Shown here: piece after piece, positions 5,391-64,000 of the stretch
Layout of the letters: every line of letters starts with the position of its first letter
Position numbering within the stretch: the first letter of the stretch is position 1
DNA from: Tubiluchus corallicola
Lineage: Eukaryota > Animalia > Priapulida
Direction: 5' to 3'
DNA length: 64,000 bases
NCBI GenBank assembly: GCA_030141605.1
Contig: JAQGDQ010000015.1
Coordinates: forward strand, 1,240,001-1,304,000
Program-made: the position numbers and the translations under genes
The notes under the pieces: model-generated
What the model saw: the letters and a program-made list of their open reading frames with translations, nothing else
What the model was told of the DNA's origin: nothing
Databases searched by the model: none

Positions 5391-5639
5391 TTTTTTGTTT
5401 AATTACAACTAGACTCTTCGCATCAAAGCGTTATTAAATATTGCCACTATACATAACCCGTTGGCCCAACGGGTTATCATAGTTAAGGAACCAATTCGTG
5501 TAGTATGAGCAAGTAGCACATAGATCATACTGGCAGATCATTACAGATATTACAACTTCCCGTAGTGCTGACCGATGGCAGCAGACACTGGCTTATTGAT
5601 CGTCAGTTACCTAGCTTTGCCGTTCGTTCGTTCGTTTAT

Positions 5640-22669: not shown

Positions 22670-22742
<73 letters not shown>

Positions 22743-32300: not shown

Positions 32301-32604
32301 CCAGATATGTGCAGGCAAGTCAAATGGCCCTTACTCGAATGCTTGTTACGGTGACTCAGGCGGACCATTTGCTCAAGTGCAAAATGGAAAGTGGACGCTG
32401 ATTGGTGTAGTGCAAGGCGGAAAGGCTGGCTGCCCTAGCAACAGTAACTACGCTGTATACGAGAACGTGGCTAGTTCTTATTCGTGGATTTACTCACATT
32501 TGCCTAAAGTAAAGATAGCACAATCATCAACAAAGATTTTTTCGCTTATATCAGCTTTAGCTGCAAGACAAGATGGCCCTCTTTCTCAAACATGCCCTGC
32601 TTAA
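29366..32604 (+). CDS. Secreted S1A (chymotrypsin-fold) serine protease, paralog 1, 4 exons
   Basis: Exons 29366-29436 (signal MFERVSLCCFLTTVLSAFIKLAC, least certain), 29957-30111 (propeptide to VVG), 31092-31250 (YPWQV, CGGSL, LTAKHC) and 31991-32604 (RDVAIL, TGWG, GDSGGP). Intron phases 2,1,1 are consistent. Confidence 0.92.
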
Positions 32605-33300: not shown

Positions 33301-36300
33301 TTGACAATGACGATGGCGTCGATAACGATAATTTTGATGTTGATAATAATGGTGACGATTATAGTAATGACATTCTCTTGTCTTTATAGTGACATGCATA
33401 AGAGAATATGAAAATTGTAAAAACTAACAATGTGAGTGGTTACCACAAATGTTTGTTAAGCTCAATCACCAGCTGTGGTTTAATAAACGAGCTTAGGTCT
33501 TATTCGCCTTCAAGCATACCGTCGACAATTACAACTGATAATAGATAGTAACAATTGCTAATAGCATTGCTTTACTGAGCATAATAAGAGAATCATAAAC
33601 ATTACGCATATAAGTTTAAACCACATATATTCTATAATTAAAAAGACAAAAAATTATATTTATATTCCACAATATAAAAACTAATAAAACGCTTACTTTG
33701 TATTATAGAAAGTAAAATATGAAGTGTTGTAAAAGCGCAAATGACACACACACACACACACACATATATATATGTGTGTTGGCGCTGAGTATTTTCACAC
33801 TCGGTGGGTACAGTTTTACAGGATTGGAATCGCGTAAGAGCGCAATGGCTTTAATTGTGCCAATACTCCCCTCTGTCACTTTGGTTACATCCTACTTGTG
33901 ACATAGGCAGCACTACTTAACCGTTAGCCTCCTTCCCTGTTGCAAGCCAGCTGTAACATTATCATCTTTAGCTGATGAGTCTGTTGCTATGAAACTTCTT
34001 TACTGTTTTCAATAAAATAGTTTATTTTGTCTAAAACTGTGCAGTTTTGATGTTTCCTGCCAGTGACTTTGCAATCGGCATCTGGTGCTTATTTTTGTTG
34101 AAGTTGTTGTTGCTTACGTCAAATCTGCAGGAAAGTGCTCTTTCACTGGTTTTCTAAAATCAGGAGTGTTAAAAAATAAAGCAAGACTAATGTTATGATG
34201 AAAACTCTCATTTATTTAAGCAAATTTGGTGTTTAGCTACATTGTACAAGTTCGTAAAGATTTTGTCTTCACAGAAATTATCTATCACGAATTTGCGTAC
34301 TGGTATGCTTTGCCTATTTATTCACGTGTAAGGTCACTTAGGGCAATGAGCCCCAAAGTGTGATCATGGTTTATAAGAAAATGTCAAGATTGAAAAATAA
34401 TTACCGATTCGTTTATTTACATAAATATAAAATAGTTTATTTAAAACGTGCACTTACAAGTGTAAGCTATACTTCAATTTAGTGAATTATTTACATGAAG
34501 CAATAGCACAACAACATGTATTTACAATGAAAGGGAAGGTTTAGCATAGCCTAATGCTATTATTTGCAACGAAGCACACAAAGTTAAAAAAGAAGAAACG
34601 CAAACACACGTACAGTGTTATCTGATATAAAATCATCATGGCTGTAGTAATCATCATTTTTTGTAGGTAATGTCCCAACACATACTACCATATTGGTAAA
34701 GACAAATCACTACTTACTACATATTAAGGCTACCTACTAAAAGGTAGGGATTAACACACACAAAAGAATTCAGACGTACTTTCAGCATCAGATAGATCCA
34801 CTTAACTAATACTGAACAACGAGTCTGAGCCGGAGCGCTACTTGTTAGAATTAAAAAAATCTTAGATAAAGAGATTCTGGTGACTACGTAATTAAGTTTG
34901 ACTTTGATTTCGATTTGCTTCAGTTAACAAACGTGAACTTTTTTGTGAATAAGTCTTTTTTGTACTCGTAATTCAGCAGAGACGTTTTTATTACGATGTC
35001 TCCTGTAAATACATGAGTTATCACATGCACATACTAGTACCACACGTGCGTAGGTTAGTAGTTTGTTAATGCCCTAGATGCTTAAAAAAGACAAAATTAT
35101 TTTTATTAAAATGAAGGTTAATTCGGGAGCTGTTAAAAATATATGCTGTACGTACAGGAAGCATTTAAATAAAAACAGTTATTAAACGCAGTATGCAAAA
35201 CTGTTTAATGATCCATTTCACAAATTAAAGTGCGAGTTACATGTCTCGTTCACAACATTTAATAACACAAAATTTTCGACAGTTTTACCCTCTCATCTTT
35301 AGGTACGTGTAATGGCATTTTTATGACTCCGTCTCTAATGAAATTGTTTATTTAAAAATATTCTATTGCCGGAAGATTCGAAGTTATAGAGAGAACTAAA
35401 TTACTTGAGCTGTAAAATTAATGTCTGAGTAATTTTAATCGTGTAATCTAATTCAAAGCTATCAAAAGGTAAACGTTCCATGATTAAGTCTCAAGCACAG
35501 ATTTCTGTGAAACTCTGTGTGGGAGAACGAAGAGAGAATGAGAAAGTGAGTGAGAGTGAGTGAGTGAGCAAGTGTAAGAGCGGGAAAGGCAAGAGTAAGA
35601 ACAAAAGTGACGAGAGAAAACATAGAGAACAGGAAGAGAGCACTCGTGGAAAAAAAGAGATACAGAAAGAAGAACTTTACCAAACATTCACCATTACGGA
35701 TTACGCTAGAGCATGTAGATGCTGACTTTTAATCATCACCCTGCTAGAAATGATTCTAAGCCCAGAACCCTTGTCTGGTACCTTACAATTTCAACAGGGC
35801 GGAATCTACGTTGTAACAAGTTTGACAACCCTGCCTTCAGTGATCTCCTCCTTTCTTGGCCTGTGATCTAACTCTTCAAAAAGCAAACTGCAATGACATG
35901 CTTCATGTTGTTTGCAAGTCTCAATCGTAAATTGAAGCCCCTGCAGGAAACTTGACTAAACATTTCTTTAGATCTTACAGAGCTCTGTTGTAGTTCCCCT
36001 TGTTAATGGTCAAGACAACACGTTTGGAAGATTTAAGAAACTAGGTATTGTGTCACACGCATCGTAAAAAAATCGTCACAAAACTTAGTCTCAAGGATTT
36101 GTGTTTTGTCTTATATACATTTTGACTTGCATTCTACAAGTACATGTAAGTAATTATTTATAATCTGAGTTTCAAGGTTATCAATAATTAACGTGTGATT
36201 TCAGAATTATTGGATACCAAGAGTGACCGAAAGGAAGATAATTCTGAATAAGTTGGGACAGAGCTCGGAATTGACTCACAGACTCTCTATATATTAATTT

Positions 36301-39300
36301 AAGAGAGACAATTTCAAAGGGAATTAGTTCCCTATCCTACTGTCCTATAAGAATGACCGAGAAAAATATCCACCTATTTTTAGAAAAAATCATTTGTAAA
36401 CAATCTAACGAAATGTTATGAGAATAAAGGCTAGTTATAATAAATAACTGCATGAGATTTAAGGATATTTCGCTATTGCAAAATGTAAAAAAAAGAAACA
36501 CAAGTGAACTCCGCAAAAGCAATAGTATCTGCAATTAGATGTATTATAGCCATATTTGCATAGGAACTTGCACGTGTGTTTGCCAAACAAAATGTAATTA
36601 TAATAGAAATGGCAATGCAAATAGCATAACAATGACTATAATTAAGCCTGAGGAGAACTGGTTAAATGACTCAGACATTCCATGACAATAGAACTAACAT
36701 GACCCTGAGCCTGTCTTGGAACAATGATATTGCCCTTATTCTAAAAGTTATCTCGATTAAGGAAATTTCGCCACAGTATAATATATAGGATTTGTTGTGA
36801 AGTGGCTCTTCAGGGCATCCATTTTCTAGCTGATGTCGTTTATTGTTCTGCTGTTGCTGTCAAGTGTCATCCGAATACCATAAGTGAATTGTATCTAAAT
36901 GTGGTAAAAGTCAAACAATTAGCAGAAGATCAAATTATCTTGAAGTATGTTTTATGAATACTTGTACAATATTTTATAAAAAAATACATCAGTGACGGAG
37001 ATGTATACTACAAAGAAAAATATATCATTGGTAAAATGCTAAAACAGCATAAGTATGACAAGCAATGCTTTCCCTTTCTTTACTTTGGGTTTTTGGGACA
37101 TATCAAGAAAAATGAGACTGAATTATTCTTCTCAAAAATTTCACGAGAACATTAAGATTTTATTAGCCATAGCTGCATTGCGTTCGTCAACCGCTGTTTT
37201 TAAAGCGTTCAAAGTAAACACATGCCACAGGATATACCAAGAAAGAGTGCATCTAGCCAATTTATAAGTGCGACTAATTTATTCTGGTAGGTTAGGTGTG
37301 ATTTGCTAATAATGTCAGAACAATTTACCGAAATATATAAAGAAACGAGACCGTCTTACGACAAGAATTTTGTGTAATTTTTGTCTTATTGTTACTCCTG
37401 TATTTTTCTTTTCTAAAAATCATCAAAGCAATATGTACTTCTTAGCTAATCAGTCTTTCTAACAATCACCTTTAACTTCACAGGAAAGAGATTACCGTTA
37501 GGTCTCCTTACGGTTACTTAGAATAGTGAATTATGCTGGCTCAAAGCAATAATGGAACACAATTAATTAAATCTATACACTCAGTGCAAGTTTTGATTAG
37601 CTAGCAGGCCGACAAACTGTGCGTGTAGCTGAAATCTGCTCATAGTCGGGACAATTTTTTCCGTCTTGCATTCCAGGCACAAAATTATAATTAATAGGCT
37701 GGAGCTAAGATTGTAGAATTTCGCTGTAATATCTCCATTTGCTGATAACATGCATTGCTGATTACTATTGCTCTATGATTCGGGGTCGGGAACTTTGATC
37801 CCGAACCTAGAACACCCTTAGCAAATGTCCACAAAAGTGTGTGCCTTAGTAATTACCTACTACAAGACACAGCACAAGGCTGTCTCGAAACCACAAACAC
37901 AGAATGCATCCAAGTTAAGATAAAAAATAACTAATATGAAAAAAACTCATATTTGTACTATTTCGTGTGCTCTAATGAACACCAGTTTTCATATCTACTC
38001 CTTCTACATTCCAAACAGTCTGACTTTTGCTTTTAATACAGCAAGAAATTACTTACAAATTGTATCATTCGTTCAAATTAGCGGTCCATTAGAATTTATT
38101 CTGTGTCATTGCTTCTTACACAATTGCTTTCGCAAAGTTGGTGTAACAGATCGGTTGAACAAGCGCTTCTCCACTTTCTCTCATTCCCTGTTATCATTGG
38201 GTTGTATTCCTCTTGCTGTCGTGATGAAAGCGGAGGGATTAAGTCATACACCTTTTAGCCACCTTTTGGATACTACGTTCTCCCAATGACATCGTCTTCT
38301 GTTCACTGTGCCTCAATGTCATTGTTGTCATCAGAGTGTGGTATACAACTGCAAACTGGTCAGCAAGCTAAAATGATAATGATAAGGTTAGGTTTCGATG
38401 GTGTGTTCTGTGTTTAATTTCTGAAATATAGTTTACAATTTTCTATTCTGTTACGAACTTAGGCGATTTCTATTGTTAGTAACTCTGTAATTTGTAAATG
38501 ACAAAGTGAAATAACGAATAAGCGAATACATTTAAAAAATGTTCAATTTAATACGGATTTGCAGGTGGTGCGAGTCAGGATGCTGTCTCCATTTAGGAAA
38601 GGAAACGAGATATAAGGTAACAACGTTTGTTCTTTACTCCTATATCTAGCATCTAAAAATACAAAAACAGAAAAGTGTCACTGCAAATGCATTATTTCAT
38701 GGCAGAAGCACATGTACGATTGTTCGATATTTGTGTCCAGCAAAACTTAATTTCATCAACAAATCGTGCGTAATTGCACAATAATTGTAGAGCCTTTTCA
38801 CACAAAAGGTCGATTAAATTACTAATTCTCTACTCAGAAAATTTGACGTCAAATTTCAGTCAAGGATGACCATAAAAGTGTCTTGCCAAGGGCGACAGCA
38901 CGTGTGTATTAAGGTAATTATTTGAACGCCACACCTTAACTCACGACTGTAAGCTATAAACCGGATGTCCTGGTTCAAATTTCCTTTGCAGCAATCAAAT
39001 GAGGCTCTTCGTCAGCTTCAGTTTTAAACTGAAATGGTTATCACACCACCAAAGTTTATCTTATCAAGCCTACTACAGAAAACGTTAAATTTTATTTTTT
39101 ATTCTAAACTAATTTGCTGATCTAGTTTTATGGTTTGCTGCCAGTTTGCATGTGCTTTTAGTTCTTTAATATAATTTCACTATTATATTTTTAGTGTTCA
39201 AAATCGCGTTGATACGTATAGGAAAAAATAAGTATTAATAAGCTGTAAGATTCAGTGATTTAGTAATTGACGGTGCTATCATTCTGTCTTCAGAATTAAA

Positions 39301-39303
39301 AAA

Positions 39304-47537
<8,234 letters not shown>

Positions 47538-48339
47538 TTAGTGGTTCCAGTATAAGTCAACTATTATTAAAGATAAAACTTGAGGAGTTTCATTAAACAA
47601 ATGAAAAAAAGAGATTTCCGATACCATCTTGAAAGATCTGTGCGTCTACACGTACCGCAAATAAGCTTAACATGTATTTTTATGTTACTGCGCCTTTGCA
47701 TGAGCTTCAATTGAAAACTGAGTGTAATTTTTGTGCAATGATTAAGTAGTATGTTTATTATTCAGTAATTACTGGTGCAATAATAAGTGCATGCTTCCAT
47801 GTGCGCAAACCTCTAAAGCTTGTGACGTCTTACCATATTTTTTTATGAGATTTCAGACTTTTGCAAGAGCAATCTTCACAGTATTATTTTGGAAAGTCTA
47901 TAGATTTTACAATAGCGACAAAGTGAAACAATAGGCATATGTAAAGAGAAATTATTGACTAAATAAATATCTGAGTGAGTCCGGAAGTTTCCACAGTTGA
48001 TTTTAATGACGTAATACAATTACTAGATGGTGATATTGATACGATAGGCCTACTCGGTTATGATACTGCTTTTTTGTTTTTGCTCGTCATCTAATGTACA
48101 AAATAGTTGTAGCTATATGTAGCGCATTTGAATGACTATATCAAGTAATGGTACACTGTGTAATGTTTTTCTACAAATCAGTCAATTTAACGAATAAATT
48201 CTTTAGTAATTTAATTAGCACCACAAATGTTTTGTTACAATACCTCTATAATAATATTTTTTGCAAGAAAAACATTTGTTTTACAACTACCTTCAAATTT
48301 GTACTTGATAAATTAATGTGTATATTCATTACCATGATA

Positions 48340-48720
48340 CAGTAGTAGAACAGCTGCAGCGGCAGTGTAAGCCGCAACAACAGCAGCAGCAATTAATACA
48401 GAATGATTGCAGCAAAGAGTAACAGTAGAAGGTAGTGCAACAGCAACAACAGAAGGCTAACAACAACAACTACAACAGCAGCAGCTGTAATAGATATAGC
48501 AAAGCGATACAGCAGCAGCATTAACAACCAGAGCATCAATAGCAGCGCAGCAATAACTATAACGACAGTAGCAGCAGCAGCAACAACGACAACAACAGCA
48601 ACAACAAAAACGGCAGTAAAACAACAACAGCAGCATTAACAACACCAACAGCAGCCGCAACAGAAGCAGCAACAACAGCAGTAGCAACAGAAGCAGCAAC
48701 AACAACAGCAGCAACAACTG
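48340..48720. repeat. (CAA/CAG)n degenerate trinucleotide tract
   Basis: Direct reading; it is the source of the spurious poly-L/poly-C ORFs. Confidence 0.92.
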
Positions 48721-49766
48721 TTATGTTATAGGTTGATCTGTTAGATGACGTCACTTTCACGTTAGGTCCACGTGTGAACTTTGAATTCAGTTGTTCATGC
48801 TACTAAATTCCTATTTTGTTAGGCCCATGTTAGAAGTTAAGCTGTTGAACAACAACAGTAATTAAAACTTATTTCTGAGAAACACTTTTTCTAAGAAACA
48901 GACATAAACCAACATTATCGTGCAATATATTTCGCAAGTGATACATGAAAAATGTTTACAATTATTGCTGATCTTAATTTACATTCGTATTTAATTCAAT
49001 AATTGACGTACTAATTGATCTGACTAGTCCTGATGGAGTTGACAGCTACAAGCAACTGATGAAGCAAACAACATATTCAAGGTCGGTTTCTTCTAAAGCA
49101 CACCAAGCGTTCTGTGAATATAGTGTTGTAATTATATTAAGTTCAAGGACTACTATACGACAAGAAATTTATCTCAGCTGTTATAACGTGCAATATAGTT
49201 GCAAATAGATGGCCTTTTTTACTAAATTTTAACATCAAATCTCGCTTCTTCTAAGGTATAATCACGAAAGTTTGTATGGTATTATCATTCTAACCATTCT
49301 GATTCAAACCATTTTTGTAATAAATTAGTCTTTCCTGATCATTTAATAAAGTGGGAAATTAGGTAAGCTGTACACATAATATGTCAAATAAATTCAAATA
49401 AGCATCAAGAAAATTAGGCAAATTGTACACATAATATGGCAGAATTCCTACGAATCTTATAAAGAACCAGAACTAATACTCACTTGAAGTATTAGAAAAT
49501 CTTGTGCTTTGCAAATAAAATGATTACAGTAACAATGATATTAAATTTCATTGCTAGTTTATGTGTTTCATTGCTAAAATATCTGGCATCTATTATAATA
49601 TGGGAAATGAAGCAAGAAGTGAAAATACAACAAAATACTTGTAGATAACAGATAGGGAATAATAATATAGGTAAATAGTAACAAAAATGGGTAATAAGAT
49701 AGACCCTGTTCACAACAATAATATCCTCGTGTAGAATTCTGTGGAACTGTATATGTAAAAGCTCAC

Positions 49767-50550
49767 CATGCCAAGTGCAGTGATATTAAAACCGGCATCT
49801 CTGATACAAGTTATTATTCGACCACAAGCACCTAAGAAAACATAGAATTACTATTATATAAAAAAGACAACATGAAATCAATACGATTTGAAAAGAACTT
49901 TTTTGTTTTTCATAATAGGTAACATTATTGTAATTAAATAGAAAAAATGAGCAAAACAAAGGCAGAGAAAAATATACACAGTCAGACAAATATAAAGAGA
50001 GAGAGAGGGAGAAGACATAAATTTAGATAGACAGAGAGAAAGAGAGAGGGATATAGAAAGAGAGAGAGAGATGTAGCACTTGATCACAATTTAGGAATCA
50101 CTAAATGGTAAATCAGATACCTAAATTTTTAATAATATTGTAGAATTAAGCAAAAGTTTAAAGGCACTTTTCAGCTAACCACATTTTTTACTAAATTGTA
50201 GTCGTAAAAACTTTTTGATAAGCAAACATGAGATCTCCCTAAAGCTTTTTAGACCTGCACTAGAAATAAAAGGTTAAAGCTTAATGCAAATAAAAATCAA
50301 AGAGCTCACAAAAATAATAACCAAATTATGACTTGCAGTAGTTAAAAGACCAATTTAAAAACAACACATACAAAAATTCATGCAAAAACTGGATTTGCTA
50401 ATAATTTTTATAGCCAAAATTCAATTAATTTACCAGACAATACTTACCAGACAGCAACATATGAGGTTTAATTATGCAGAGTGTAAAATGCTGGAATTGA
50501 GCTGTATTCCTTAAACGACCAAATTTTCTTCCGAAGAAAATGTCTATCTC
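49767..50550 (-). pseudogene. NME7: Two NME7-like (nucleoside diphosphate kinase 7) internal exons carried inside the transposon
   Basis: GT-AG exons 50550-50448 and 49831-49767 splice in phase 1 to EIDIFFGRKFGRLRNTAQFQHFTLCIIKPHMLLSGACGRIITCIRDAGFNITALGM. This aligns with the NME7 linker/second NDK-domain start recalled as EMELFF...NTAKFTNCTCCIVKPHAVSEGLLGKILMAIRDAGFEISAMQM. Confidence 0.85.
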
Positions 50551-51599
50551 CTAAAATTCACTATTACTCATATTATACAGGTTTCAATGGCTTTACTTAT
50601 AGTTACATTGGGGCATATTCATTCAAGCAGTTTATATAGCAGCAGCAAATGCATTAAATCTGGTAAAAGTGATACCAAAATAGTTCTTAAAAAAGCCACA
50701 CCAAAACAGCAACAAGTGGCCTTAATGAAAGGCGGTTCTATTATATGCCAGCAGAATGAGAATCACTTATTTGTCTTCATAAGACAGTCAAGTCACAACA
50801 ATGAATACATAATAATTTACAAAATCAAAGGACGAAGGGATGGTGAAAGACACAATGGTCATCTAGACAGCAAATCTAGCTAGCCAGTTAATTTCAACTG
50901 CAAATTTAAAATTTTAATTTAAGCCAGACTACCTCATTTTGGACTTTGTTTTTTATTGATTTTATTGCTTATTGTTGAAAAATCTGGTCATGTCTATATA
51001 GTCACCTAAATGGGTTTGAAATGTGCGACATTTTACTTTTGGATACATCATGTGAACTGACACCTTCACTGAACAATCATATACATTCCATATATGTGTA
51101 TGCCCTAGGCATATTTTAAGGTAAAGAATATTTTAACTCTTATTAACATTCTGAGCACAAGACACGAGAGGAATCTATACAAGATATGGTGCTGCATTTT
51201 TGGTGCAGCACACAATAAGAGTGAATGATGCAGTGCATTTAATGTCAAAGTAGTTGTTAAGTTTGCGGTGCCATTATACAGTCAGAACCATCACACCGAC
51301 CTGTCTCAAGATAGTTATACACAAATAAAATCATCGCAAGTAGAAGTTGTTCATGGGTAAATCATTCTTCCTACTTGCTACAGTAAGACTAAAAACAAAG
51401 CTTGAAAGAAACTATTACATTATTGTGTTTACAAATTCTTTGCTGCAACCCAATTTCATAAAATTTAAGATACATATGGCAATACCAAAATATTTTATGG
51501 AAAGTGCTTTTGACTTTTGCCTCTTAATAATTTGCTAGAAATCTACCAAACCCAAACACTGTGCACAAATTTAGTTTGCCAATTACTATATATATATAT

Positions 51600-54500
51600 C
51601 AAGGACTACTATACAACAGGACGTGCACGCTCAGATCTCTGACTGTGCTAGCGGAGGCGATCAATACTTGTATGAACGTAATCTAGAAATAGTGCGCTTT
51701 AGAGAGTAGTGATCTTGGAAATTAAAGAATGGGCGGATCGGTAGATAGCGAGAATTATTTTTCATTTAATTGGTTCTTTACATTACGGGAGAAAAGTACC
51801 AATTGTTTATTTTATGTATCAAAGGAAATTAGTGTTCATTTTTACTTCTTAAATAGCGCACTACTTTAGGCGTAAGTGTGGTTTACCGGAAGTAGTGCTT
51901 TGTCATTGTTAATGTGTCTGCTTGTGTTTGTTTCTTTGTGGATTATTTTCAAAATTTCTGGTGGATTTTATACATCTGTGCTCAGCAGCATGCCTAACAA
52001 GTGTGGTGTTGTTAAATGCAAAGGTAACTATGACACGGAGAACAAGTGTCGTGTGTTCAGACTGCCAAGAGATCATGTAGAAAAACAGAAATGGCTAAGT
52101 GTTCTTCCCCCACGCGAAGGCTTTGTTGTTGATCCAACGAAATTTTTCATTTGCGAAAAGCATTGGCTATCGGATACTCAAATGGTCAAAATTCCAGGTG
52201 GTCACACCAGGCCAGTGGATCCACCCAGTTTTTTCAACGTTCCAACATCATGCTTGCCCACTCCAAAGCCACCACCTCGCCCTCCAAAAACTGAGGACCA
52301 GCAGCTGAATTATTTCTTTAAAAAGGATAAAATAACTTCTCTCAATGAATTCACTCCTGAGAAAGACCTGCATAAGACGTATCAGAACCTCATTATATCT
52401 CGCACACAAGACAAATTTGTGTGCATGTTCATGGAAGAGGACCACAGTCAATGTTATATGTCAATTATTGTTCACAATAAGCCTACCTTGTGTTCCCCTC
52501 TTACTCTGTATGCTTTCAAAAACGGGATCAGTGTGCCATTAAGTAAAATCCTCAGTCCGAACAATGGGCTGTCCTCTTACTCACAATTTTTCGCGGTTGT
52601 GAATTCTGTTGTCAACCACATTCATCATGTTGATGATATTGTCAACAAAGTGACAAAGTCTCTTGAACTTGAACTAGCTCAAAATCGAGAACAATCTCTT
52701 AGTGTTAATGCTAAAGCCAAGAAGCTCAAATTTCTAACACGACAGCTTCGACTATTATGTGATAAGACTTTCACAGTGTCTGATTATTGCTTTGCAATAG
52801 AGTCGTTTCCCCATTGCAATTACGAACAACTGCGTGACTTTTTAGTGTTACCCAGCAATAGAAAGCTGCAGTCAGTTATTTCATCGACAGATATTGACAA
52901 GGTGCTAGGTAAAACATTTCAGAAAGTGAAAAGCTCTGAGCAGAAACACTGTATGCTATTGGTGGATGAAGTGAAAATACGCCCAACAGTGGCTTTTTCA
53001 GGGGGTGTGCTAAATGGCATGGCAAAAAATGAGCCAGACAGTAAAGCTACATCAATGCTATGTGTGATGGCTAAATGTCTACATGGTGGCCCCAGCGTGA
53101 TGATATCAGTGACCCCCGTTCACAAGCTGACTGCTGCATATCAATTCTCTGTCGTGAAGGAGGCTGCTACAGTGGTTGAGAATTCGGGAGGAACTGTTTT
53201 AGGGTCCATGACGGACAACCACAAGATCAACCAACAATACTGCAAATTGTTTACCAGACGAACAGACTGGGAGGCTGAACATCCCCTGGAAAATACACGA
53301 GTGTGGTTCCTGTTGTATGATACCGTCCACATTCTGAAATGTATCAGGAACAACTGGATCACGGAGAAATGTCAGAGATTATCGTTTGACAAGAAAACTG
53401 TTGGCTCATTTGCTGAAGTAAAAAGTCTTTACAAAGCTGAGAAAGACTATGTGCTCAAGTCAACACCTTTCACATATTCTGCAGTCTTCCCATCGAAACT
53501 TCAGCTCCAGAATGTGCAACATGTCCTGAGGGTGTTCAACGATCGTGTCGTTGCATCGCTGAGACTTCGAGGAGCCCAGGACACTGCAGAATTCATTCAG
53601 CAAGTGCTACGCTGGTGGAATGTGGTAAATGTTTCTGCCAGAGGTCAAGACACGAGGATGAGAGACCCTGATCGATCTGCTCAACAAGATACATCTGATA
53701 CTCTTCAGTCGTTGTTGACTCTGTTTAAGCAAACCGAATCAGGACACGGACCAAATAGAATTGAATGCCTGACACATGATACGCGAAAAGCTTTGATTCA
53801 GACCACGGAGGGACTCCTCGCAATCTGTAGGCACTTGTTTTCTGTTGGATTTCACTGCGTATTATTGCGTGAGCTTCAGAGTGACAGAATAGAGGGTGAG
53901 TTCTTAGTTTACAGGCAGTCAAGGGGGGCCAATGCATTCATGCAAGCTGGAGATGTCTGTTCAGCATTCAAGCGGAGACTGGCGTGTTTCTCTGCATCAT
54001 TCCTGGAGTTTGTGGACACAGACACATCATCCGAAAGCCAGTTGCACACATGCAATGGGATTGATTTCGAGGATGCCAAAATTATGGAGATTTGTGTTGA
54101 CGAGACTCTTTCCAAAACTGAACTGAACGCGTGTGCATATGTCGCAGGTTGGTTGGAGAGTAAGTGCCAAAATGACATTTCTTTTCCCGAGGATGAGCCT
54201 CTCCTTTCTGAGGAAATGAAAATGTTCATTGAAGAAGTGTCTAAGGGAGGTCTTACAGTGCCCCACACATTCACGTTCGAATTCGTAACAACTGGCTTGT
54301 GTTTTGTGAAGAAGTCAACTCACACAGTCTGCTGCCGCAACAAGCTCATGAACATCCTCTCCATAATTAATGCCTACTTTGATTTTGGAGAATTTTCAAG
54401 AAATGCTCTGAGACGCCTGGCGAATGTACTGCTGCATGGACTACACAATTTGGAGAAGGATCACCAGCAGAACTCAGCCCTTTACCAGACCTCCATTAAG

Positions 54501-54907
54501 AAGGCGCGACTAGCCGACTAATTGTCGCAAACATCTCTGCAAAATGGTGAGTGCAATAATTTCATGTATTCTAATTTACACAGAGGAACCTATGAATGAG
54601 TTTATATAGTCCTGACAAAATGGTGCAGTCTGTTTATTCTCTATAGAAAGTGACAGGTAATCTTCGGGACACAATGAGTTGCAGATATGGTGTGTTTTTT
54701 TTTGGGGGGGGGGGGATATCATAGGTACCACTGTTTTTAAATTACTAGATGAATGAGGAATATGTTCTATGTGTATTGTGGCATGCTATAGGTCACCATT
54801 GGGGGTAAATATGTCCAAATTATTAGCACTAAATGTTAAAAATAGATCGCCTCCGCTAGCCGAATCAGAGATTTCAGCGTGCACGTCCTGTAGTATAGTA
54901 GTCCTTG
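51600..54907 (+). mobile_element. Core autonomous P-element/THAP transposon with 63-bp TIRs
   Basis: 51600-51662 versus the reverse complement of 54845-54907: 57/63 identical. The inner left end is preceded by (AT)n and has no matching TSD. Confidence 0.93.
51990..54521 (+). CDS. P-element/THAP9-like transposase, intact and intronless, 843 aa from ATG 51990
   Basis: THAP zinc finger MPNKCGVVKC...FRLP...W...ICEKHW; catalytic motifs LLVDEV, SMTDN, YDTVHILKCIRNNW (D(2)H) and LQSDRIEGEF; C-terminal AYVAGWL and SKGGLTVP. Confidence 0.95.
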   Translation: MPNKCGVVKCKGNYDTENKCRVFRLPRDHVEKQKWLSVLPPREGFVVDPTKFFICEKHWLSDTQMVKIPGGHTRPVDPPSFFNVPTSCLPTPKPPPRPPKTEDQQLNYFFKKDKITSLNEFTPEKDLHKTYQNLIISRTQDKFVCMFMEEDHSQCYMSIIVHNKPTLCSPLTLYAFKNGISVPLSKILSPNNGLSSYSQFFAVVNSVVNHIHHVDDIVNKVTKSLELELAQNREQSLSVNAKAKKLKFLTRQLRLLCDKTFTVSDYCFAIESFPHCNYEQLRDFLVLPSNRKLQSVISSTDIDKVLGKTFQKVKSSEQKHCMLLVDEVKIRPTVAFSGGVLNGMAKNEPDSKATSMLCVMAKCLHGGPSVMISVTPVHKLTAAYQFSVVKEAATVVENSGGTVLGSMTDNHKINQQYCKLFTRRTDWEAEHPLENTRVWFLLYDTVHILKCIRNNWITEKCQRLSFDKKTVGSFAEVKSLYKAEKDYVLKSTPFTYSAVFPSKLQLQNVQHVLRVFNDRVVASLRLRGAQDTAEFIQQVLRWWNVVNVSARGQDTRMRDPDRSAQQDTSDTLQSLLTLFKQTESGHGPNRIECLTHDTRKALIQTTEGLLAICRHLFSVGFHCVLLRELQSDRIEGEFLVYRQSRGANAFMQAGDVCSAFKRRLACFSASFLEFVDTDTSSESQLHTCNGIDFEDAKIMEICVDETLSKTELNACAYVAGWLESKCQNDISFPEDEPLLSEEMKMFIEEVSKGGLTVPHTFTFEFVTTGLCFVKKSTHTVCCRNKLMNILSIINAYFDFGEFSRNALRRLANVLLHGLHNLEKDHQQNSALYQTSIKKARLAD

Positions 54908-56564
54908 ATTAAGTTGTAATTATATTATAGTATATTAAGCTACACAAAAAAACTAATGAAAAACAAGAAAGTGCAGTCAGTCAATTTCGCTTTAATTATT
55001 ATTACAGCATTATCACATATTATTGTGCATGTTTAATTTAGTGAGTTTTAAAAAATATTATGAGAACTAGGAAATTATAGTGAGTCGTTAAAAATTTAAT
55101 AAATGAATATTAAAAATAGGAACAACATTAAATTTTATTGGTGCCCATACGTTTCGTAATCAAGTGTCCTGTGTCCCATATGTAACGTACACCTCCCAGG
55201 CAAGCTACGCTTTGGCACCCTTACATATCTGTAAAATGGGAAACAGAAGAGCTTCTATATCATTGGGCTTTGGCTATGACGTGTTAGTATCATTATTACC
55301 TGCTGGTGTGTAGTTACAATGTAATTGTAAACGTTTATGTCTATACTGGTATATGGGCAAACAATAATAGAGGCTGCACAACTGTTTGTGGTGTACTATA
55401 CTTGATCTATACCTGTAACATATATCTATTGTGTACTAACTTATATTATATATATATATATATATACTTGTTGTATAGCACGTATGTAAAAATAGAGTCA
55501 ATAAGTGCCCAAGTTAACAGATTGGATAAGTTGGATTAGCTTATAACGTCAAGGTTAACCTCAAATCTAATGAACTTTCTCCCAATGAATTAAAGAATAT
55601 TTGTAAAAGAGAGCTACATAGTTCTTTTCCTTGACTTTATATTGGTAAATGGTTGTATATTGTATAATTCGTTATACCAAGTTTTAGCGAGCTCATTTTT
55701 TATTAGCAAAGTTGCCAAAAAATTAACCTGTTTTGCGTTATAGTCTATCGTAAGGATATTATGCACATTCAGCGGTTTTCAACGCTTCACGGTTCTTTAC
55801 ATTCCAAAAATTACTTTTTCAGGAAGAACAAAATGCAATCATATTACGTTATTACTTTTTAGGATCTTAAAGAATTTTCGAGATCCAGGAACCCTTTCAG
55901 GAAATACGATTTAAATTCATTACGTAAAATACAGTGCACAGAGTGAACTTTTCTGCGTCCCCTAAGTCTGCTAACTTGCCAACAGGAATTAAATACTTTT
56001 GCACATAACATGAACGTATTTCCATTTTGTTGTAAATTCACCATTGTCCAACGTCACTAACACAATTCCTACTTCCACGATTTGAATGAAGAAATGTTGC
56101 ACAGCAGTCTGAACGTTCACATCCATTCAGTAATGCAATCCTTTAACATGGAGTAAATAAAGAAACTGCGTCTCTCATATGGTGGGAGCTTGCAGAGAGC
56201 CACTTCCGTCGACACAGCCGCCCTAGCAATGAATCATACCGAAGGTGATAAGGCTGTGTATATGGTATACACAGTTTCAATTTAGCAAAAGCGCTTACCC
56301 TAACAAGGTGGAGGAACAGTGTATAAAAGATACTTGGATATTTATATGGAATGTTTTAGGATGAGCACGAATCAAAATGGCTCAATTTAGGCCCTAACAA
56401 TAAACAACATTTTTAAACAGTAATCGCGAAAACGGGCAGAGAAAACGTTGGTACATTATCGTGGTTGTCTTTTTTAGTCAGACGTGCGTTCTTTGGCGAT
56501 AATAAGTTTAGGCCTATTACCGAAATTAACTTATTTCCGTGCTGGTGTACAGACATTTTGACAT

Positions 56565-56945
56565 AAATATTTGGACACAGGACGATACAGTGGGCCATAG
56601 AGGTTATTTAGACGCTAAGTACTTTAGACACAGGGGATAGTTGGACGAAAGTTATTATGGACGTATACGAAATTTGGATGCAAGGTATTTTGGACACATT
56701 ACTTGAACAAACAGGTATTTGAACACAAATTCTTTTGGACACGTAGGCACTTTGGGCACAAAGCTATTTGAACACAGGCCATTTCATTCAGACACAAGAT
56801 GATTTGGACACATAGGTCATTTGAATACATAGGCTATTTGCACTCATAAGCCATAAGGACACCAGGCGCTTTGGACGTATAGATCATTTGGATGCACATA
56901 TGTCATTATGCACAAGAATTGGGACACTTTGCATTTAGACACGCG
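56565..56945. repeat. Degenerate ~21-bp tandem array with TTGGACAC core
   Basis: Repeated ttggacac/ttgaacac/ttagacac at ~21-bp spacing; the opposite-strand version (gtgtccaa) is at 60220-60440. Confidence 0.8.
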
Positions 56946-57002
56946 TAGCCTATTTTTCGCTGTCTAACGTTGGGGAATCCATATTGGAAGAGGCATCAAT
57001 GA

Positions 57003-57597
57003 TATTTAAAGGAAGACAGGATGATTTTCATTATACTAACCCGTTTTCAAGTCCGATAAAAAGTATGCATTTTAACATAATCAATACTACAAAGGCGTTT
57101 CTGATAATTAAATAATAAATTAAAAACTTAATTAACGACGGGTTAGCCCAACTATTGATGACAAACTAACATAACTTTTTATACAACAAAAATATTCCAT
57201 GAGCGTGTTGCACGTGTTGCGCGAAAATTGAAGTACAGTGCTATTGTAAGATATTCAGTGTGTTGTACTAAAACTAGGCAAGTTTTAAGATAAAAATTAA
57301 AATTTCAAATTTACCGCTGTGTTCATACTGGGCTGTCGATGTTTGTGTAGTTTGTCACAAACGAACTCACCTAAACTTAGATGTACAGCGCCTGTTTTTT
57401 GTGCAATGCGTTTCCGAACTAACTACGTTTCAGTGCCCGTCTAACTAACGAATGGCGAAATGCATGTAACAGCGAAGAACTAGTGGCGCGAACATGAAAT
57501 TGTGCGTGTGTGGTAATAATTCTTTCGTAAGTAATTTCTGAAAAAATAGTATGTTTCCTTTCCGTATTTTTTTAACTTACAGTTTAAGATTGGGTCC
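57003..57597. repeat. Dispersed repeat, copy B (inverted copy of 19620-20220)
   Basis: See copy A; begins TTTAAAGGAAGACAGG. Confidence 0.85.
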
Positions 57598-57611
57598 GGT
57601 TTTGCTCTCAG

Positions 57612-58915
57612 ATTCAGCATATAGCAGAATCTTATTGGAAATCAACCGTTTATTTCTTCAATTTTGAAATCATAATAACTTCAAAACTAAAACATCTAGA
57701 ATCACGAAACTTGCGGGGTATGTGACTAACACTAGCATGGTGACCGGTGACTTTGGTTCAAAGGGTCAAGGACACTGGACATCGGTCAGTTTTTTCGATT
57801 ATTACTCAACTCCTCCTAGGGCTTTGAGTTTAATTCATTCTTTTCCACGGGTATATGCGCACCTAGGGTGTTAAGAACCTAGAATTTTTCAAGGGCCGAG
57901 ATAAGAGCCAATGTGAAAATTAAGGCAAACGGCTTAGCAGAATCACGAAATTTACAGGGGTAGGCACCTAACATAGGCAGCCACAAAGTGGTATAGGAAT
58001 GGTGACTTCTGCATCAAAGGTTACACCAGTAGGCCCCAAAATCTGGAAATTAGGGCGATTGACTTTGTCACTCAACTGTTCTTACAATATTGGATTAGGA
58101 GTCACTGTTTATGCATGTATGGGTAACCCAGCAAGAATAGATGAGAATTAAGTATTTTTTTTGAAAACTGGGCGTGACCAGATCACGCGACATAGGGAAA
58201 AGTGTTAAATTGAGGTCTGATGAATAAATCCAAAACTAAAACAGCTAGAGTCATGAAAGTTCCAGAGAAGACACCTGAGCTAGGGGACTAGCACTGACGT
58301 AGTGAACGGTGACCTCGAGTCAAAGGTCAAGGAGACTAGACATTGATCTATTTTTCGTTTGTTGCTCAATTCCTTTTAGGGCTTCAGAACTTTTTCATAG
58401 TATGCCCTGTGGAGTAGAAGTACATTAAATATTTTTGGAAAAATTGTAGTCTAGGAAAGTTCCTGGTTAGGGGCCAAAATGTGAAAATTAGGTTAAACGG
58501 CTTTGTCACTGAACTCCTGTTGCAGTATTGGACTAAGAGTCAATGTGTATTCATGTGTGGGTAGGCCCGTGGGCGTAGATGTGCATTAAGAATTTTTCGA
58601 AAACTGGGTATGGCACGTCACGAACATAGGCGAAAGTGTTAAAATGGGTCTGGTCAATAATTTTATAAGTATACGAGCTATAATCACGAAACTTGCAGGA
58701 TAGGCACCTAATACAGGCTCCTAATAGCTCCACTTACACCATTGGGCTAGTTTTTGAATGTATGCATAGGCTGGTAAGGGTAGATGTGCAGAAGGTATTT
58801 TTCATATTGTGGGCGTGGGCACGTCATGTAACATAGGTAAAAGTGTTAAAATGGGCTTGTAATAAAATGAATTTCTTATGTAATCATGTATGGAGAATTT
58901 AACAATAGCAAAATC
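57612..58915. mobile_element. Modular repeat element related to the one at 25843-27012
   Basis: Starts ATATAGCAGAATCTT (compare CTATAGCAAAATCTT); internal repeated modules (ctagaatcacgaaact, aaagtgttaaa, ggtgac..tcaaagg). Confidence 0.55.
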
Positions 58916-60219
58916 AGGATCTTGAGACAAAGATCAAGTCTGCAACGATTTTTCGCTGTCTTCATCATAATGTAGAATCTTAAGTTTATAACGCGGCCAG
59001 AAACAGCAGCCTATTTCTTTTTTATTTTGAAAATCAAAACAGTTTTGCGCCGAATTCGCATATTTACAGAATACATTTCGTGACAGAAACAAAGTTTGCC
59101 CGCATGGCTGACTATGTTAATAATTGGGGCAAAACAGCACTAGCTTTGTTGACCGAAGCTATTTACTCTGTAAAAAATTCAAACAACATAACCTTGTAAA
59201 GAGCTAAGACAAATGCTACGTGACTTTGATCCTTTCGCACACACTGACACTCGAAATAAGCACTTTATTATATTATGATCGACTGGTGATCACAGATTGA
59301 TCACTTCTGAAAAGGATAGCCGTACACATTGTTTTTAGGGATGTGATGCTTGCAGATATCAGTAAGTGACGCGGCGAGAATGTCATTTACACTCTCGACG
59401 AACTCAGGCAAAATTCTCATCACATACTAAACTTTATGTACTAATTTTTTTTTCATTTTCCATTTTAATAAGTACTTGCAAAGGGAAAAATTCCAAGAAA
59501 AATTTGATTATCTTGATAGAAAAACTATTTTATCTTCATTAATACCTAAACACCTTAATCTATAATGCATTATTATCACACTTATAGTGCGGTTTCACAC
59601 AAGAAGAAATCGCGCCGCATCTGTCGCAATAGTTGTCCGTACCAATCGTAATTACCACTAACGCCGTCACCGTATGTTATGTACCTTAATTATATTAAGT
59701 TAAACAGGCCTATTTTTGCAATTTTTAACCTGTAGGCTGCTGTTACTTCTTGGCGGGGGTAGTAACGGGCGTTGGCATCGAAGAACCTTATTAAAAGCTG
59801 ATAATATATCACTCGTTTGATCCATGTTTTTTAGATATAAGAAAGCCCTTGAATTAAAAAAAGCGGTTTAAATTCCTCAAGAGCATGGTATAGCTAAATA
59901 ACCCATTTTGCTAAATGATACCACTTCCCGCTTAGATCCAAATGGTACCTGAAGTGAGCCCAAACAGGGTGCGTCTGAATAACCTATGTATCCAGATCAC
60001 TTGCGTTAAAATTACAACATACACTGTATTTGGCTTAATTTATTTATAATCCTAAATTTCAAGATTACTATTAATCATTAAACGTTAGAAACAAATACGG
60101 CCGAAATACAGAACACATGACAAAGTCAGGACTGAACTTGAATTTGAACTATGATCCCTTACCCATAGGTGACATATGCGGTATGTGAAACTAAGTACGT
60201 TTCGACTTTGAAGATGAGT

Positions 60220-60440
60220 TTTATGTGTGTTCGAATTACCTACGTGTCACACTAACATATAGGTAAATGGCTTGTGTGCAAAAAATTACATAAGGTAAAC
60301 GACGTTGACTTAGTATCTAAATAAGCTACGTGTTCGAATATCACTTATGTCCAAATTACCTATGGTCCAAAATATCTAGTGTTCAAATGCCCTACACGAC
60401 CAAAATACTTGGTGTCCAAATGTTCCATGTGTCCAAAACG
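60220..60440. repeat. Degenerate ~21-bp tandem array with GTGTCCAA core
   Basis: Direct reading; inverse orientation of 56565-56945. Confidence 0.7.
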
Positions 60441-60442
60441 GG

Positions 60443-61680
60443 GTACACTCGTTTGTCAGAAAAAATTCACAGAAAGCTTTCTTGCCAGAAAAATTTACTT
60501 CCCAGAAAAGAGTTTTTCCAGAATTGTCATTTTCCAGAATTTTTTCCCAGAACCATCATTTAGAAGATAAATTTTACAGAAAATATAAATATTTTTTTAA
60601 AGCGCAGTTATATAATACGCAATAAAAGAAAATTAGTTTACTTTAACTCCGTGTTTTGCTTAATAGGGATCATATGATCAAAAAATCTGGTCAAGGCAAG
60701 AAAGTGGATTTGTAACGTCAGAACTATTGAATAGCGAATCATGTTCATCTTTGCATATATGTAATAGTGAATGATTATGGCGTGTGATTCGTTATCAAGG
60801 TTAAAAAATACTGACTGACAACTAATTTGTTGGGAAACCGCTTAGGAATCTCACTCTTGGGCAGTTACTTTTACGATGATTTTGTTCGCTTCTCGGTATT
60901 TAGAGAAGTTAACCATGCATCCGAATTTGACTGTGACATCTCTGCTTATTCAACATATTATCTCTGAGGTTTATTTTGATGATGAACTGGGATCTAGTCC
61001 TGCACTAAAAGAACCTTTTTTGCAAAGGAACATAATTTTTTAAGCAAATGTTGACCCCAAGATATTTACAAATCTATAATTACGGTTTGCAAAGTCTTGG
61101 CGTTTTCAACAAATAATGCAACACAGATTACTTTGCGCATGCGATTTCATCCTAAAACAGCTTGAAATTGTAATAACGAAGTTTCAAAATAAAATATTTT
61201 TCCAAAATAAAATAAGTTGACCACAAATAACGCTGATTTTTGATAGCATTAGTCAAACCGCTGTAGATAATTTAGGAAAGCAGAAAGAGAAATGACGAAA
61301 GGGGGGACGAGGGAGGGAGAGAGAGACCAACAAGGGAGAGAGACGGTCGAGGGAGAGAGAGGGGGGAAGGAGAGAGCTAGAAGGGGAGGGGAGAGAACGG
61401 GAGAGAATGAGAAAAATGATGAGGAGAGAGAGAAAGAAGGAGAGAGGGTAGGAGCGAGAGGGAGGAAGATAGAGAAGAAGATGTCGTAGTGACTTTTGTG
61501 ATGACAGTAAAACAAAAACAAGAACTTTTCCTTCTGCCATAACGCTAAATTTATTCTTTTCTCGAAGGCGCAATAAACATTTTCTCTCTTCCATATCCAG
61601 TCAACAACTAACTTCCTATTTTTCCTACAGCTATACGTAAATTAATTCACTTTGGCTTCTTTACGGCGGGTGAATCGTGA

Positions 61681-61721
<41 letters not shown>

Positions 61722-62128
61722 CGAAACGGAAAAAGAAGAGAGAGAGAGAAGGAAGGGATGGGAATGAGATAGAAGACACAGAGAGAGATTGAAGAGGAGG
61801 ATGCGAAACGAGTACAGGGGAGTGACAGAGGAAAAAGGAGGAATAGAGAGAGTAAGAAAGACAGACAGGGACGCACAGATGGAGAGAATGAGAGGAGCAG
61901 GAACGGACGGAGGCAAAGAAGAAGCAAAGAGAGAAAGGCTTTATCCTACTAAAATAGCAGATCTTGCAATTAGAAACATAACCATGATTTTCCTGTTGAA
62001 AAATCTTTCTGGAAATGCTTTTTTGTGAAACGAGTTTTCTAGAAAAAATATTTTCTGGGAAAATTTTTCTGATAATTTTTCTGCAAAGTCACTTTTTCTG
62101 TGGAAGAAAATTTCTGGGAAATGGACCT
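60443..62128. mobile_element. Foldback-like element with inverted arrays of ~15-bp subterminal repeats
   Basis: Left array of TTYCCAGAA motifs (60450-60580) and right array of TTCTGGRAA motifs (62000-62122), enclosing GA-rich low-complexity DNA (61285-61935). Confidence 0.6.
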
Positions 62129-64000
62129 AAACTAACTCGACTTACCCACCAACGAACCTACCTACTTTACCTATCTACCTAACAATCTACCTACCTACCT
62201 ACCTACTTACTCTCCAAACCTGCCTATGAAAGTTGAACACAAAGAATACAGTAACTTCAATTGTACTTGACAATGTCATTTTCCATTTTCAAGAAATCGT
62301 TACGTTAGACCCATTTCACAGCGAGGGCGTGCAATGCCTGATGAGAAATTCTGCCGCCTACTAGAACTATGCGTCCTCCTCGTAAGGAATTTTGCCGCGA
62401 AATTCAGTCTTAAATTTAACTACTTAATTACTTTTTTCTTATTTAACGAACAACAATTAGCGCATTTCAGCATAAAATTGTAAGATTTGTTCTCTCTTTT
62501 AACAGACCGACATTTTATGTTTTATTAATGCAAGACCGATGGCTATATTCGTGAAAAATAAAAATAACGCAAGCATATTTTTATTTTATATGTATGTATA
62601 TTTTCAGGTTTTGAATTGGTTAGTAGAACTTTACTAAAAAAACAAACAGGTCTGACATTGCACTGACTAACATTATCAATAATTACTTTGTATTATGAGG
62701 AATACGGCAAGTATAACTTGATTTAGTCATGCTTATATAAAGTATAAAGTCGCAAAATAGCTGCAGCTAAGTTGGTATTGCACCACTGACTGCAGGGATG
62801 TCAATTCTATGGTACGACAGCGAGACATGCACCCTTTCCGCTGATACCGCGGACTCTTTCCACTTAAGTCGCCTTTGTACTAGAAAGGGAGTAACCCATT
62901 CCAATGACTACTATTATCAAGAGGCGCTGTCTTAGTGTCCTCCGCTAACAAACTGGTTTAACTACCTCACATCCTCCACACCCCCGTCTTGCTTGGGTCA
63001 AACAAGTGCATAGGTGTAACACATTATGAAGTACCTCTCTATTGGCTAAGCTTCCTTCCATGATCTGGTTGCCACTGCCACTTAAGAGGCCAAGCACGCA
63101 AGTAAAATAAGAAGCAGTGGTGCTCTAAATGACCTGACAATGGCGTTGTGACGTCGCAGTCAGACATTAACCCATAATTTCCTTCTAGGATCGATTGTTT
63201 ACGAGAAGCAGTCGACTTTCGACTTCTATAGGCACCATCTAGACCATTATATGCCAAGGAAATGATGTCATTGGACACTGATGATATGCAAGGCCAATCA
63301 CTAACTGATTTTTGATTTCTATTGCAAGCACTGATAACGAAAAATCAATTTTCGTGACCATTGTCAGCAACAATGAAGCAGTGATACGTCATAGCAGTAT
63401 TTGACGTCACCATGAGATAACAGGTGAAAAACGACAACATTTTTGGAATCTTCTGGTTGACTTTCCTCTCAGTCAATGATATATATTTTACCGCAGGTGT
63501 CATCTTGGATTTATGCATATATCTCAAAGGTACTAAAGCGAGTACCTAAAACCACATTCTAAAACAGAATCTGAAGGGAAAAATTCTATAGCAATATGTT
63601 CTAGGTACCTTGGTACTTGGGTTACTTGGAGCTATCGTTACCGACGTAAAACGTTTCAATTTTTCAGTAAAGACGCGACTCTGCAGGAAGTACGCCTATA
63701 TTGTGGCTACCGGTTACTATGATTATGTGAATGAAACGTGTGAACTTATGACGCCGCATATGTTTCTATAGCAACTACGTCTTTTTGTTTGGAAACGGAA
63801 AATTTGCTCGGCATTGCAAATAAAGAGTACTTGGATATGGCACGCCTGCTTTTTATAACTGCCCAGTTTGTGATTATAGCAGATAACAGGTACAGTACAA
63901 ACATGGTTATTTTGACATTTCCACAGTACATCTCAATCGTTGACTACCAAATTGAAACTGTCACGTGAAACCACGACATTTTATGTGCTATGCACTAAGA

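What the first reader, a model, noticed from the sequence alone, without database searches (positions are those of the whole stretch)
49767..50550. Host NME7 exons with intact splice sites carried as transposon cargo (Pack-type capture by a P element)
Seen: two minus-strand exons (103 and 65 bp) with AG/GT boundaries and a 616-bp intron splice in frame, without stops, into a peptide with IIKPH and IRDAGF. Both exons are absent from the ORF track. Known: this matches NME7, the ciliary/centrosomal NDK, at the start of its second NDK domain. Retained introns mean DNA-level capture rather than retrocopying. I found no convincing NME7 exons outside the TSDs. Inference: the element previously sat in an NME7 intron and carried off part of the gene. 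Gene-fragment capture is best known from Pack-MULEs, CACTA elements and Helitrons; I know it much less from autonomous P elements. The cargo is antisense to the transposase, so it could seed exon shuffling or small RNAs against NME7.
Basis: partly seen in the sequence, partly recalled or inferred. Interest (0 to 1): 0.88.

Follow-up and report, generated by a model that had tools for sequence, protein, structure and literature searches.

The report
P-element repair copy of NME7 exons
Two exons of the cilia gene NME7 sit with their intron between a short stub of a P transposon end and a whole P transposon, most likely because the cell patched the hole left by a jumping P element by copying another P copy and running on into the neighbouring gene, a route known from laboratory flies.

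Summary
The exons are real. Both match NME7 in order, with AG/GT ends. They lie in a three-ended block: a 15-22-bp P-end stub, about 2.4 kb of host DNA, then a whole 3.3-kb P element, all inside one 8-bp target duplication. Contigs of three libraries (one sample) bridge the flank-stub-host joint. In the most even library, host-DNA contigs are 1.2-1.8 times single-locus depth, which points to a second copy beginning near 49198 and lacking the stub. The block is not amplified, and the transposase copy looks to be decaying neutrally (11 of 15 listed changes non-synonymous). Best reading (0.55): a P element left this site, and repair copied a donor P and ran on into NME7 DNA before joining the leftover tail. 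The unit then need never have jumped. Main rival (0.22): it moved as a composite. The parent locus was not seen. An NME7-like motif just past the last splice donor leaves open that the source was a decayed copy. The cargo lies upstream of the transposase, so the antisense-RNA idea is weak.

The parts
49136..49143 (+). Left copy of the 8-bp target-site duplication
   Evidence: Identical to 54908-54915; chance about 6e-5
49144..49165 (+). Outer left P-end stub: 15 bp exact, 20 of 22 matching either full end; lacks the rest of the terminal repeat
   Evidence: bridged to flank and host DNA by contigs of X1, X2 and X4
49166..49197 (.). Junction stretch, probably end-joining filler; single-locus depth in X2
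   Evidence: X2 depth 175 with one contig only; contig break and depth step at 49198 in X2 and X4; in X3 a contig runs through it from 49157 without a break
49198..51599 (-). Copied host DNA (NME7 intron-exon-intron-exon-intron), 31% GC over 49165-51599
49700..49766 (-). Stretch after the last donor with an in-register NME7-like EFY triplet, then a stop: chance, or a relic of a broken next exon
   Evidence: the other frame gives no PDB hit
49767..49831 (-). NME7 exon, 65 bp, early second NDK domain
49832..50447 (-). 616-bp phase-1 intron with a GA microsatellite
50448..50550 (-). NME7 exon, 103 bp, linker and start of second NDK domain
51592..51599 (+). TA run next to the inner left end; probably the old target site of the donor copy, not matched at the right end
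   Evidence: the role is inference
51600..51665 (+). Inner left terminal inverted repeat (about 66 bp)
   Evidence: 56 of the first 62 bases match the right end
51990..54521 (+). 843-aa THAP / P-type transposase ORF; open, with D326, D409 and E635 invariant; this copy carries private changes
54842..54907 (-). Right terminal inverted repeat
   Evidence: joined to the right flank in X1 and X2 contigs, by 27 bases of element only
54908..54915 (+). Right copy of the target-site duplication
49044..49129 (.). Left part of a dispersed repeat whose other part lies at about 55046-55147; the block interrupts it
   Evidence: Two X1 contigs join 49112 to 55046 and 49129 to 55053; other loci match 49044-49129

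Best explanation
This is most likely a one-off repair copy: a P element probably once sat at this site and made the 8-bp duplication, was likely cut out leaving short tails of its ends, and the break was then likely repaired by copying another P copy that sat in NME7 intron DNA, with synthesis running about 2.4 kb past that copy's left end before being joined to the leftover left tail. Shown: the three ends, the duplication, the exons and the left joint. Inferred: the earlier resident element, tail-leaving cleavage in this family, the donor copy in NME7 and the order of events. The product is probably an inert two-exon fragment with no start codon next to a decaying transposase gene.
For: (1) The stub is 15 bp exact and carries its own target duplication. 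This is the size of tail left by Drosophila P (17-nt overhangs; repair mostly by partial copying plus end-joining, with filler; PMC2895639). (2) Run contigs of X1 and X2 hold a footprint-like joint of this same family: 20 bp of left end, 12 filler letters, 15 bp of right end (table 5c). (3) In X2, nine contigs from the flanks and from unrelated loci lie at depth 160-213, while host-DNA contigs are 1.68, 1.82 and 1.17 times their median. (4) The contig break and depth step fall at 49198 (X2, X4), 49216 (X1) and 49157 (X3), never at 49144, so the second copy seems to lack the stub. (5) The stub lacks the inner part of the repeat, where Drosophila P has its transposase sites (PMC7776569). (6) There is no amplification: summed X2 depth over the P body is 10,954-39,256 against about 300 over the host DNA. 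(7) No NDK or DM10 hit in 245 of 245 flanking minus-strand segments; Nme7 spans about 5-14 kb in five marine invertebrates listed in PMC2978717.
Against: The parent locus was never seen: no genome is held and no contig with a different left neighbour was listed. Depth is called no copy number by the tool, and the ratios are weaker in X1 (0.96-1.68) and X4 (1.38). In X3 a contig runs from 49157 to 50341 with no break at 49198, and none bridges 49154-49157. No listed contig spans the host-DNA/inner-end joint at 51599/51600. The stub matches 20 of 22 bases, more than a 17-nt tail. Where the footprint contig lies is unknown. A 5.7-kb copying tract is long, since this synthesis is described as poorly processive.
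Confidence: 0.55

Rival explanations
1. Composite transposition. Two P insertions flanked the exons in NME7, one lost all but its left tip, and transposase then moved stub + exons + second element as one unit, making the 8-bp duplication on arrival.
For: An exact duplication outside the outermost ends. The same route is proposed for Arabidopsis Pack-CACTA (PMC6379663, section read). The stub may be 22 bp.
Against: The second copy seems to start at 49198 without the stub. Transposase would have to prefer a bare stub over an intact left end 2.4 kb closer. There is no sign of further copies of the block.
Confidence: 0.22
2. The source was an older, already decaying NME7 fragment and not the working gene. 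This concerns the origin of the cargo and is compatible with either mechanism.
For: The NME7 match runs in register past the last donor to EFY and then breaks. Contigs of X1, X2, X3 and X4 all follow the window through this stretch, so the second copy probably shares it. Searches with the exon peptides found no near-identical protein (weak, the queries are short).
Against: There is no stop or frameshift in the 168 exon bases. The three exon edges fall where human NME7 introns lie (recalled exon sizes, not checked by a call; intron structure is reported as conserved in PMC2978717). No more-diverged copy was laid on either exon at 88%. The one listed exon difference (50486, X2) changes an amino acid.
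Confidence: 0.3
3. This is the native NME7 gene, with P insertions and a chance 8-bp match.
For: Clean splice sites and an open frame; X3 shows no second-copy break inside 49157-50341.
Against: Chance of the 8-mer is about 6e-5 and of the 15-mer within 10 kb about 1e-5. The flanks are two parts of one repeat. No other NDK or DM10 exon was found in 15 kb to the left or 9 kb to the right. X2 depth steps up inside the block.
Confidence: 0.07
4. An assembly error across the high-copy P repeat joined host DNA to the wrong element or flank.
For: No listed contig spans the block or the 51599/51600 joint, and the right joint rests on 27 bases of element.
Against: The left joint is bridged in three libraries. 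The duplication and the interrupted repeat tie the two flanks together.
Confidence: 0.06
5. End bypass: transposase used a chance host sequence as a left end, as reported for Drosophila P.
For: The model is named for P in PMC8277862.
Against: A 15-bp exact match by chance within 10 kb has probability about 1e-5, and the second copy appears to lack it.
Confidence: 0.02

Closest known systems
P-element-induced gap repair / gap-filling capture in Drosophila
   Same: Short leftover tails of the element ends inside the old target duplication; copying followed by end-joining with filler (PMC2895639; model named in PMC8277862).
   Different: The published cases are induced in laboratory flies. Here it would be a natural event in a non-insect genome, with a whole ectopic P plus 2.4 kb of its neighbour copied. 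Related fly work on P replacement with captured DNA is recalled only and could not be opened.
Animal Pack-TIRs (Tan et al. 2021, PMC8277862)
   Same: Host DNA between two ends of one TIR family inside a target duplication; mostly single copy; gap-filling favoured.
   Different: 0 of 370 listed Pack-TIRs are labelled P superfamily (Supplementary Data 1, all four parts read). Their median cargo is 224 bp with breaks inside the element. Here the cargo is 2.4 kb, keeps two exons, and lies outside a complete inner element.
Hybrid Pack-CACTA formation (Catoni et al., PMC6379663)
   Same: Two same-direction ends around genic DNA, one end truncated.
   Different: A non-autonomous plant element; that route needs the stub at the donor site, which the contig breaks do not support.
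P end-bypass capture (Tsubota and Huong 1991)
   Same: A P element next to single-copy DNA inside one target duplication.
   Different: That model uses a chance host end; here the end is a true 15-22-bp P stub. The paper was not held; it is known here from the summary in PMC8277862 and from recall.

Membership tests
P superfamily transposon (inner element) | N-terminal THAP domain | tested here: met
   PF05485, E 5e-5, below Pfam-strong but above its cut-off (24.4 vs 23.9 bits); the profile hits THAP structures
P superfamily transposon (inner element) | Split RNase H DDE core homologous to Drosophila P transposase, with GTP-binding insertion | tested here: met
   PF21787 E 3e-12; profile A1 vs 6p5a E 4.5e-23; D326, D409, E635 invariant in 30 of 30 and D632 in 29 of 30, aligned to fly D230, D303, E531 (catalytic role recalled) and D528 (GTP contact)
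P superfamily transposon (inner element) | Terminal inverted repeats and 7-8-bp target duplication | tested here: met
   About 66-bp repeats; an 8-bp duplication at the outermost ends, none around the inner element itself; relative L001 also starts CAAGGAC
P superfamily transposon (inner element) | 17-nt staggered cleavage leaving tails at the donor site | tested here: inconclusive
   Indirect only: a 15-bp exact stub and a 20+12+15 footprint-like joint; needs biochemistry
P superfamily transposon (inner element) | Active (autonomous) copy | tested here: inconclusive
   The ORF is open, but 11 of 15 listed differences from run contigs are non-synonymous, two at columns where 21 of 21 close relatives agree; 42 rows table 3 were not shown
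Pack-TIR / Pack-TYPE element | Non-TE host sequence between two ends of one family inside a target duplication | tested here: met
Pack-TIR / Pack-TYPE element | Parental copy identified elsewhere in the genome | tested here: inconclusive
   No genome held; depth and contig breaks suggest a second copy
Pack-TIR / Pack-TYPE element | Cargo lies within one element, between its two full ends | tested here: not met
   The cargo lies outside a complete inner element; the outer end is a stub
Pack-TIR / Pack-TYPE element | Mobilised as a unit (several copies with different target duplications) | tested here: not met
   Host-DNA depth is at most about 1.8 times single-locus and the stub joint is single-locus; one past jump cannot be excluded
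NME7 | Sequence match to NME7, exons colinear | tested here: met
   Pfam NDK E 0.056 for the exon-2 stretch
NME7 | Complete gene (DM10 + two NDK domains) | tested here: not met
   Only about 56 of 376 residues; no other hit in the flanks or in the other 35 of 36 cargo segments scanned

The most novel reading that the evidence does not exclude
The 15-22-bp stub is a working end, so the 5.76-kb block is a natural Pack-P transposon that moved, and could again be moved in trans, carrying two spliceable NME7 exons: P transposases outside insects would then shuffle multi-exon cargo using bare excision tails as ends.
Probability: 0.2. Interest if true: 0.7.

Novelty: new variant of a known kind. Interest (0 to 1): 0.45.

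Why it matters
If the best reading holds, this is a natural example, outside flies, of P-element break repair duplicating a multi-exon piece of a gene. No P-family case is among the 370 Pack-TIRs of the animal survey read here. It also warns that a target duplication around cargo does not prove the cargo ever jumped. The stub and the footprint hint that the long staggered cut of Drosophila P is shared by marine invertebrate P elements, which can be tested. The exon fragment itself is probably without function.

Tried and rejected
No genome is held, so the parent locus could not be searched. No full NME7 protein could be fetched: word searches gave 7 and 3 candidates, none at E<=10; the representative search gave 0 hits at E<=0.001; the Atlas did not answer. 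A tblastn of full NME7 against the window was therefore not run. Instead: seven short recalled NDK motifs over all six frames, where only the exon-1 motif and three isolated H-x-x-D matches appeared, and Pfam scans of 105 + 140 minus-strand stop-free segments of at least 25 aa at 54916-64000 and 34001-49143, after dropping low-complexity segments. Positions 1-34000 and the plus strand were not scanned with Pfam. The scan finds only 1 of the 2 true exon segments. No RNA holder was listed; the guessed-RNA run X6 matched only the microsatellite; neither is evidence on expression. X3 has no cover over exon 1, and three long contigs seen were absent; the tool filters records, so holes were not used. 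The idea that the footprint joint is the other allele of this locus was rejected: right-flank contigs start at 54881 and run unbroken at full single-locus depth. A transposase scan with the single protein found no loci; the alignment found 46. Five terminal 15-mers searched across those 46 loci showed no third end. Earlier-findings look-ups by place, sequence and words returned nothing. Literature searches (listings only, apart from the papers cited) showed no natural P-family exon capture; the library lacks most subscription papers.

Full report
Observation. The two minus-strand exons (103 and 65 bp), the 616-bp intron, the AG/GT ends and the stop-free joined reading are as reported. Each exon alone finds NME7 as best PDB match, at residues 218-249 and 254-272 of a 376-aa chain. 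One caveat is new: reading on through the last donor strengthens the match up to an in-register EFY triplet (E 6e-6), which occurs at 14 of 127,924 frame positions in the window. Allowing for ten to twenty places where such a motif could have been noticed, this is about a 1-in-500 to 1-in-1000 coincidence or a relic of a broken next exon. It is unexplained.

Anatomy. The window holds exactly three matches to the element end at up to 5 mismatches in 21 bases: 49144, 51600 and 54907. The inner pair are about 66-bp inverted repeats around an 843-aa THAP/RNase H ORF. A profile of it and 29 relatives hits Drosophila P transposase at E 4.5e-23, with the acidic core invariant. There are 110 homologues, the named ones from marine invertebrates and other arthropods. 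The outer end is a stub: 15 bases exact, 20 of 22 in all, with none of the rest of the repeat. The 8-bp duplication lies outside the stub and the right end, not around the inner element (chance about 6e-5). The host DNA therefore sits outside a complete element, and upstream of its gene.

Is the block real and foreign here? Contigs of X1, X2 and X4 (one sample) bridge flank, stub and host DNA. X3 (another sample) reaches the stub from both sides, but no contig bridges 49154-49157. X1 and X2 contigs join 27 bases of the right end to the right flank; no listed contig spans 51599/51600. Two X1 contigs from other loci join the left flank to the right flank (49112 to 55046, 49129 to 55053), so the block interrupts a dispersed repeat (short sides, letters between unknown). 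No NDK or DM10 hit appeared in 245 of 245 flanking minus-strand segments; that scan detects 1 of the 2 true exon segments. Nme7 spans about 5-14 kb in five marine invertebrates in the table of PMC2978717 (passages), roughly the range scanned.

Is it a duplicate? The tool warns that depth is no copy number, so this is indirect. In X2, six unrelated contigs and three flank contigs lie at 160-213 (one 54-bp repeat contig at 278.5 was left out); host-DNA contigs are 1.68, 1.82 and 1.17 times the median. In X1 the ratios are 1.68, 1.43, 1.27 and 0.96, and in X4 1.38; the longest X1 and X2 contigs touch a microsatellite that can inflate depth. Contigs break, and depth steps up, at 49198 in X2 and X4 and at 49216 in X1; in X3 the host contig starts at 49157 and has no break at 49198. 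None starts at 49144. The simplest reading is a second, near-identical locus without the stub. Its left neighbour was not listed, and X3 does not fit cleanly. Summed X2 depth over the P body is 10,954-39,256 against about 300 over the host DNA, so the family is abundant and the block is not.

A footprint. X1 and X2 each hold a contig joining 20 bases of left end to 15 bases of right end through 12 other letters, at depth 16.9 and 177.3. The shortest pieces listed were about 35 bases, so this contig probably has an anchor left of 51600: either the second copy of the host DNA (then the donor site, now holding a footprint) or any TA run. I put these at about even odds. Either way the family seems to leave 15-20-base tails, as Drosophila P does with 17-nt overhangs repaired by partial copying and end-joining with filler (PMC2895639, passages and one section; PMC7776569, passages).

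Mechanism. Best (0.55): a resident P was excised, the right tail paired with a P copy in NME7 intron DNA, synthesis copied that element and 2.4 kb beyond it, and the new strand was joined to the left tail with filler. This gives the stub length, the old target duplication, the unmatched TA run at the inner end, a stub-less second copy and no amplification. All steps are inferred. Rival (0.22): a composite jump using the stub, as in the hybrid Pack-CACTA model (PMC6379663, abstract and one section). Native gene 0.07, assembly error 0.06, end bypass 0.02. Separately, there is about a 0.3 chance that the source was an already decayed NME7 copy. The transposase copy differs from run contigs at 15 listed ORF sites, 11 non-synonymous, two at fully conserved columns (42 rows not shown). 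This is the ratio expected without selection, so it is probably no longer a source of enzyme.

Function. The fragment has no start codon and covers 56 of about 376 residues. It lies 1,050 bases upstream of the inner left end, on the opposite strand, so a transposase transcript would not cross it. Antisense RNA would need read-through from the left flank. No expression evidence was available.

Comparison and verdict. Tan et al. (PMC8277862; passages, one section and Supplementary Data 1 read) name end bypass and gap-filling for P in laboratory flies and list 370 animal Pack-TIRs, none labelled P. Six literature searches listed no natural P-family exon capture; the older fly papers could not be opened. 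It works like P gap-filling capture. It fails two Pack-element features (cargo within one element, mobilised as a unit). It is a new variant of a known kind; interest 0.45.

Noticed in passing
window 49125-49143 and 54908-54927: The rebuilt empty site contains a 16-bp tandem duplication whose joint is the 8-bp target duplication (15-bp match); possibly a scar of an earlier event.
   Followed up: partly
window 653-1921, minus strand: A FAM69/DIPK1-type protein encoded in one 422-codon stop-free stretch (Pfam PIP49_N and PIP49_C); apparently intronless.
   Followed up: partly
window 31903-32604 and 46749-47537, plus strand: Two trypsin-like exons (name from recalled motifs), 87% identical over 566 bp; a 103-bp tandem duplication at 46662-46868 lies at the start of the second.
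   Followed up: no
window 14485-14826 and 21466-27947, minus strand: A lipase-like exon and cytochrome P450 family 2-like exons (names from recalled motifs).
   Followed up: no
window 42356-42694, minus strand: A reverse-transcriptase fragment (Pfam RVT_1, E 7e-4); a repeat at 41772-42609 is 78% identical to 5639-6429.
   Followed up: no
L009 116-3903 and L013 5298-8483: Distant P relatives with 7-bp rather than 8-bp target duplications and two-part terminal repeats.
   Followed up: partly
window 52839-54634: Run contigs show several internally deleted P derivatives (skips of 78-956 bases), as expected of an abundant family.
   Followed up: no
window 62736-62879, minus strand: A weak u-PAR/Ly-6 domain hit (E 0.006).
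   Followed up: no
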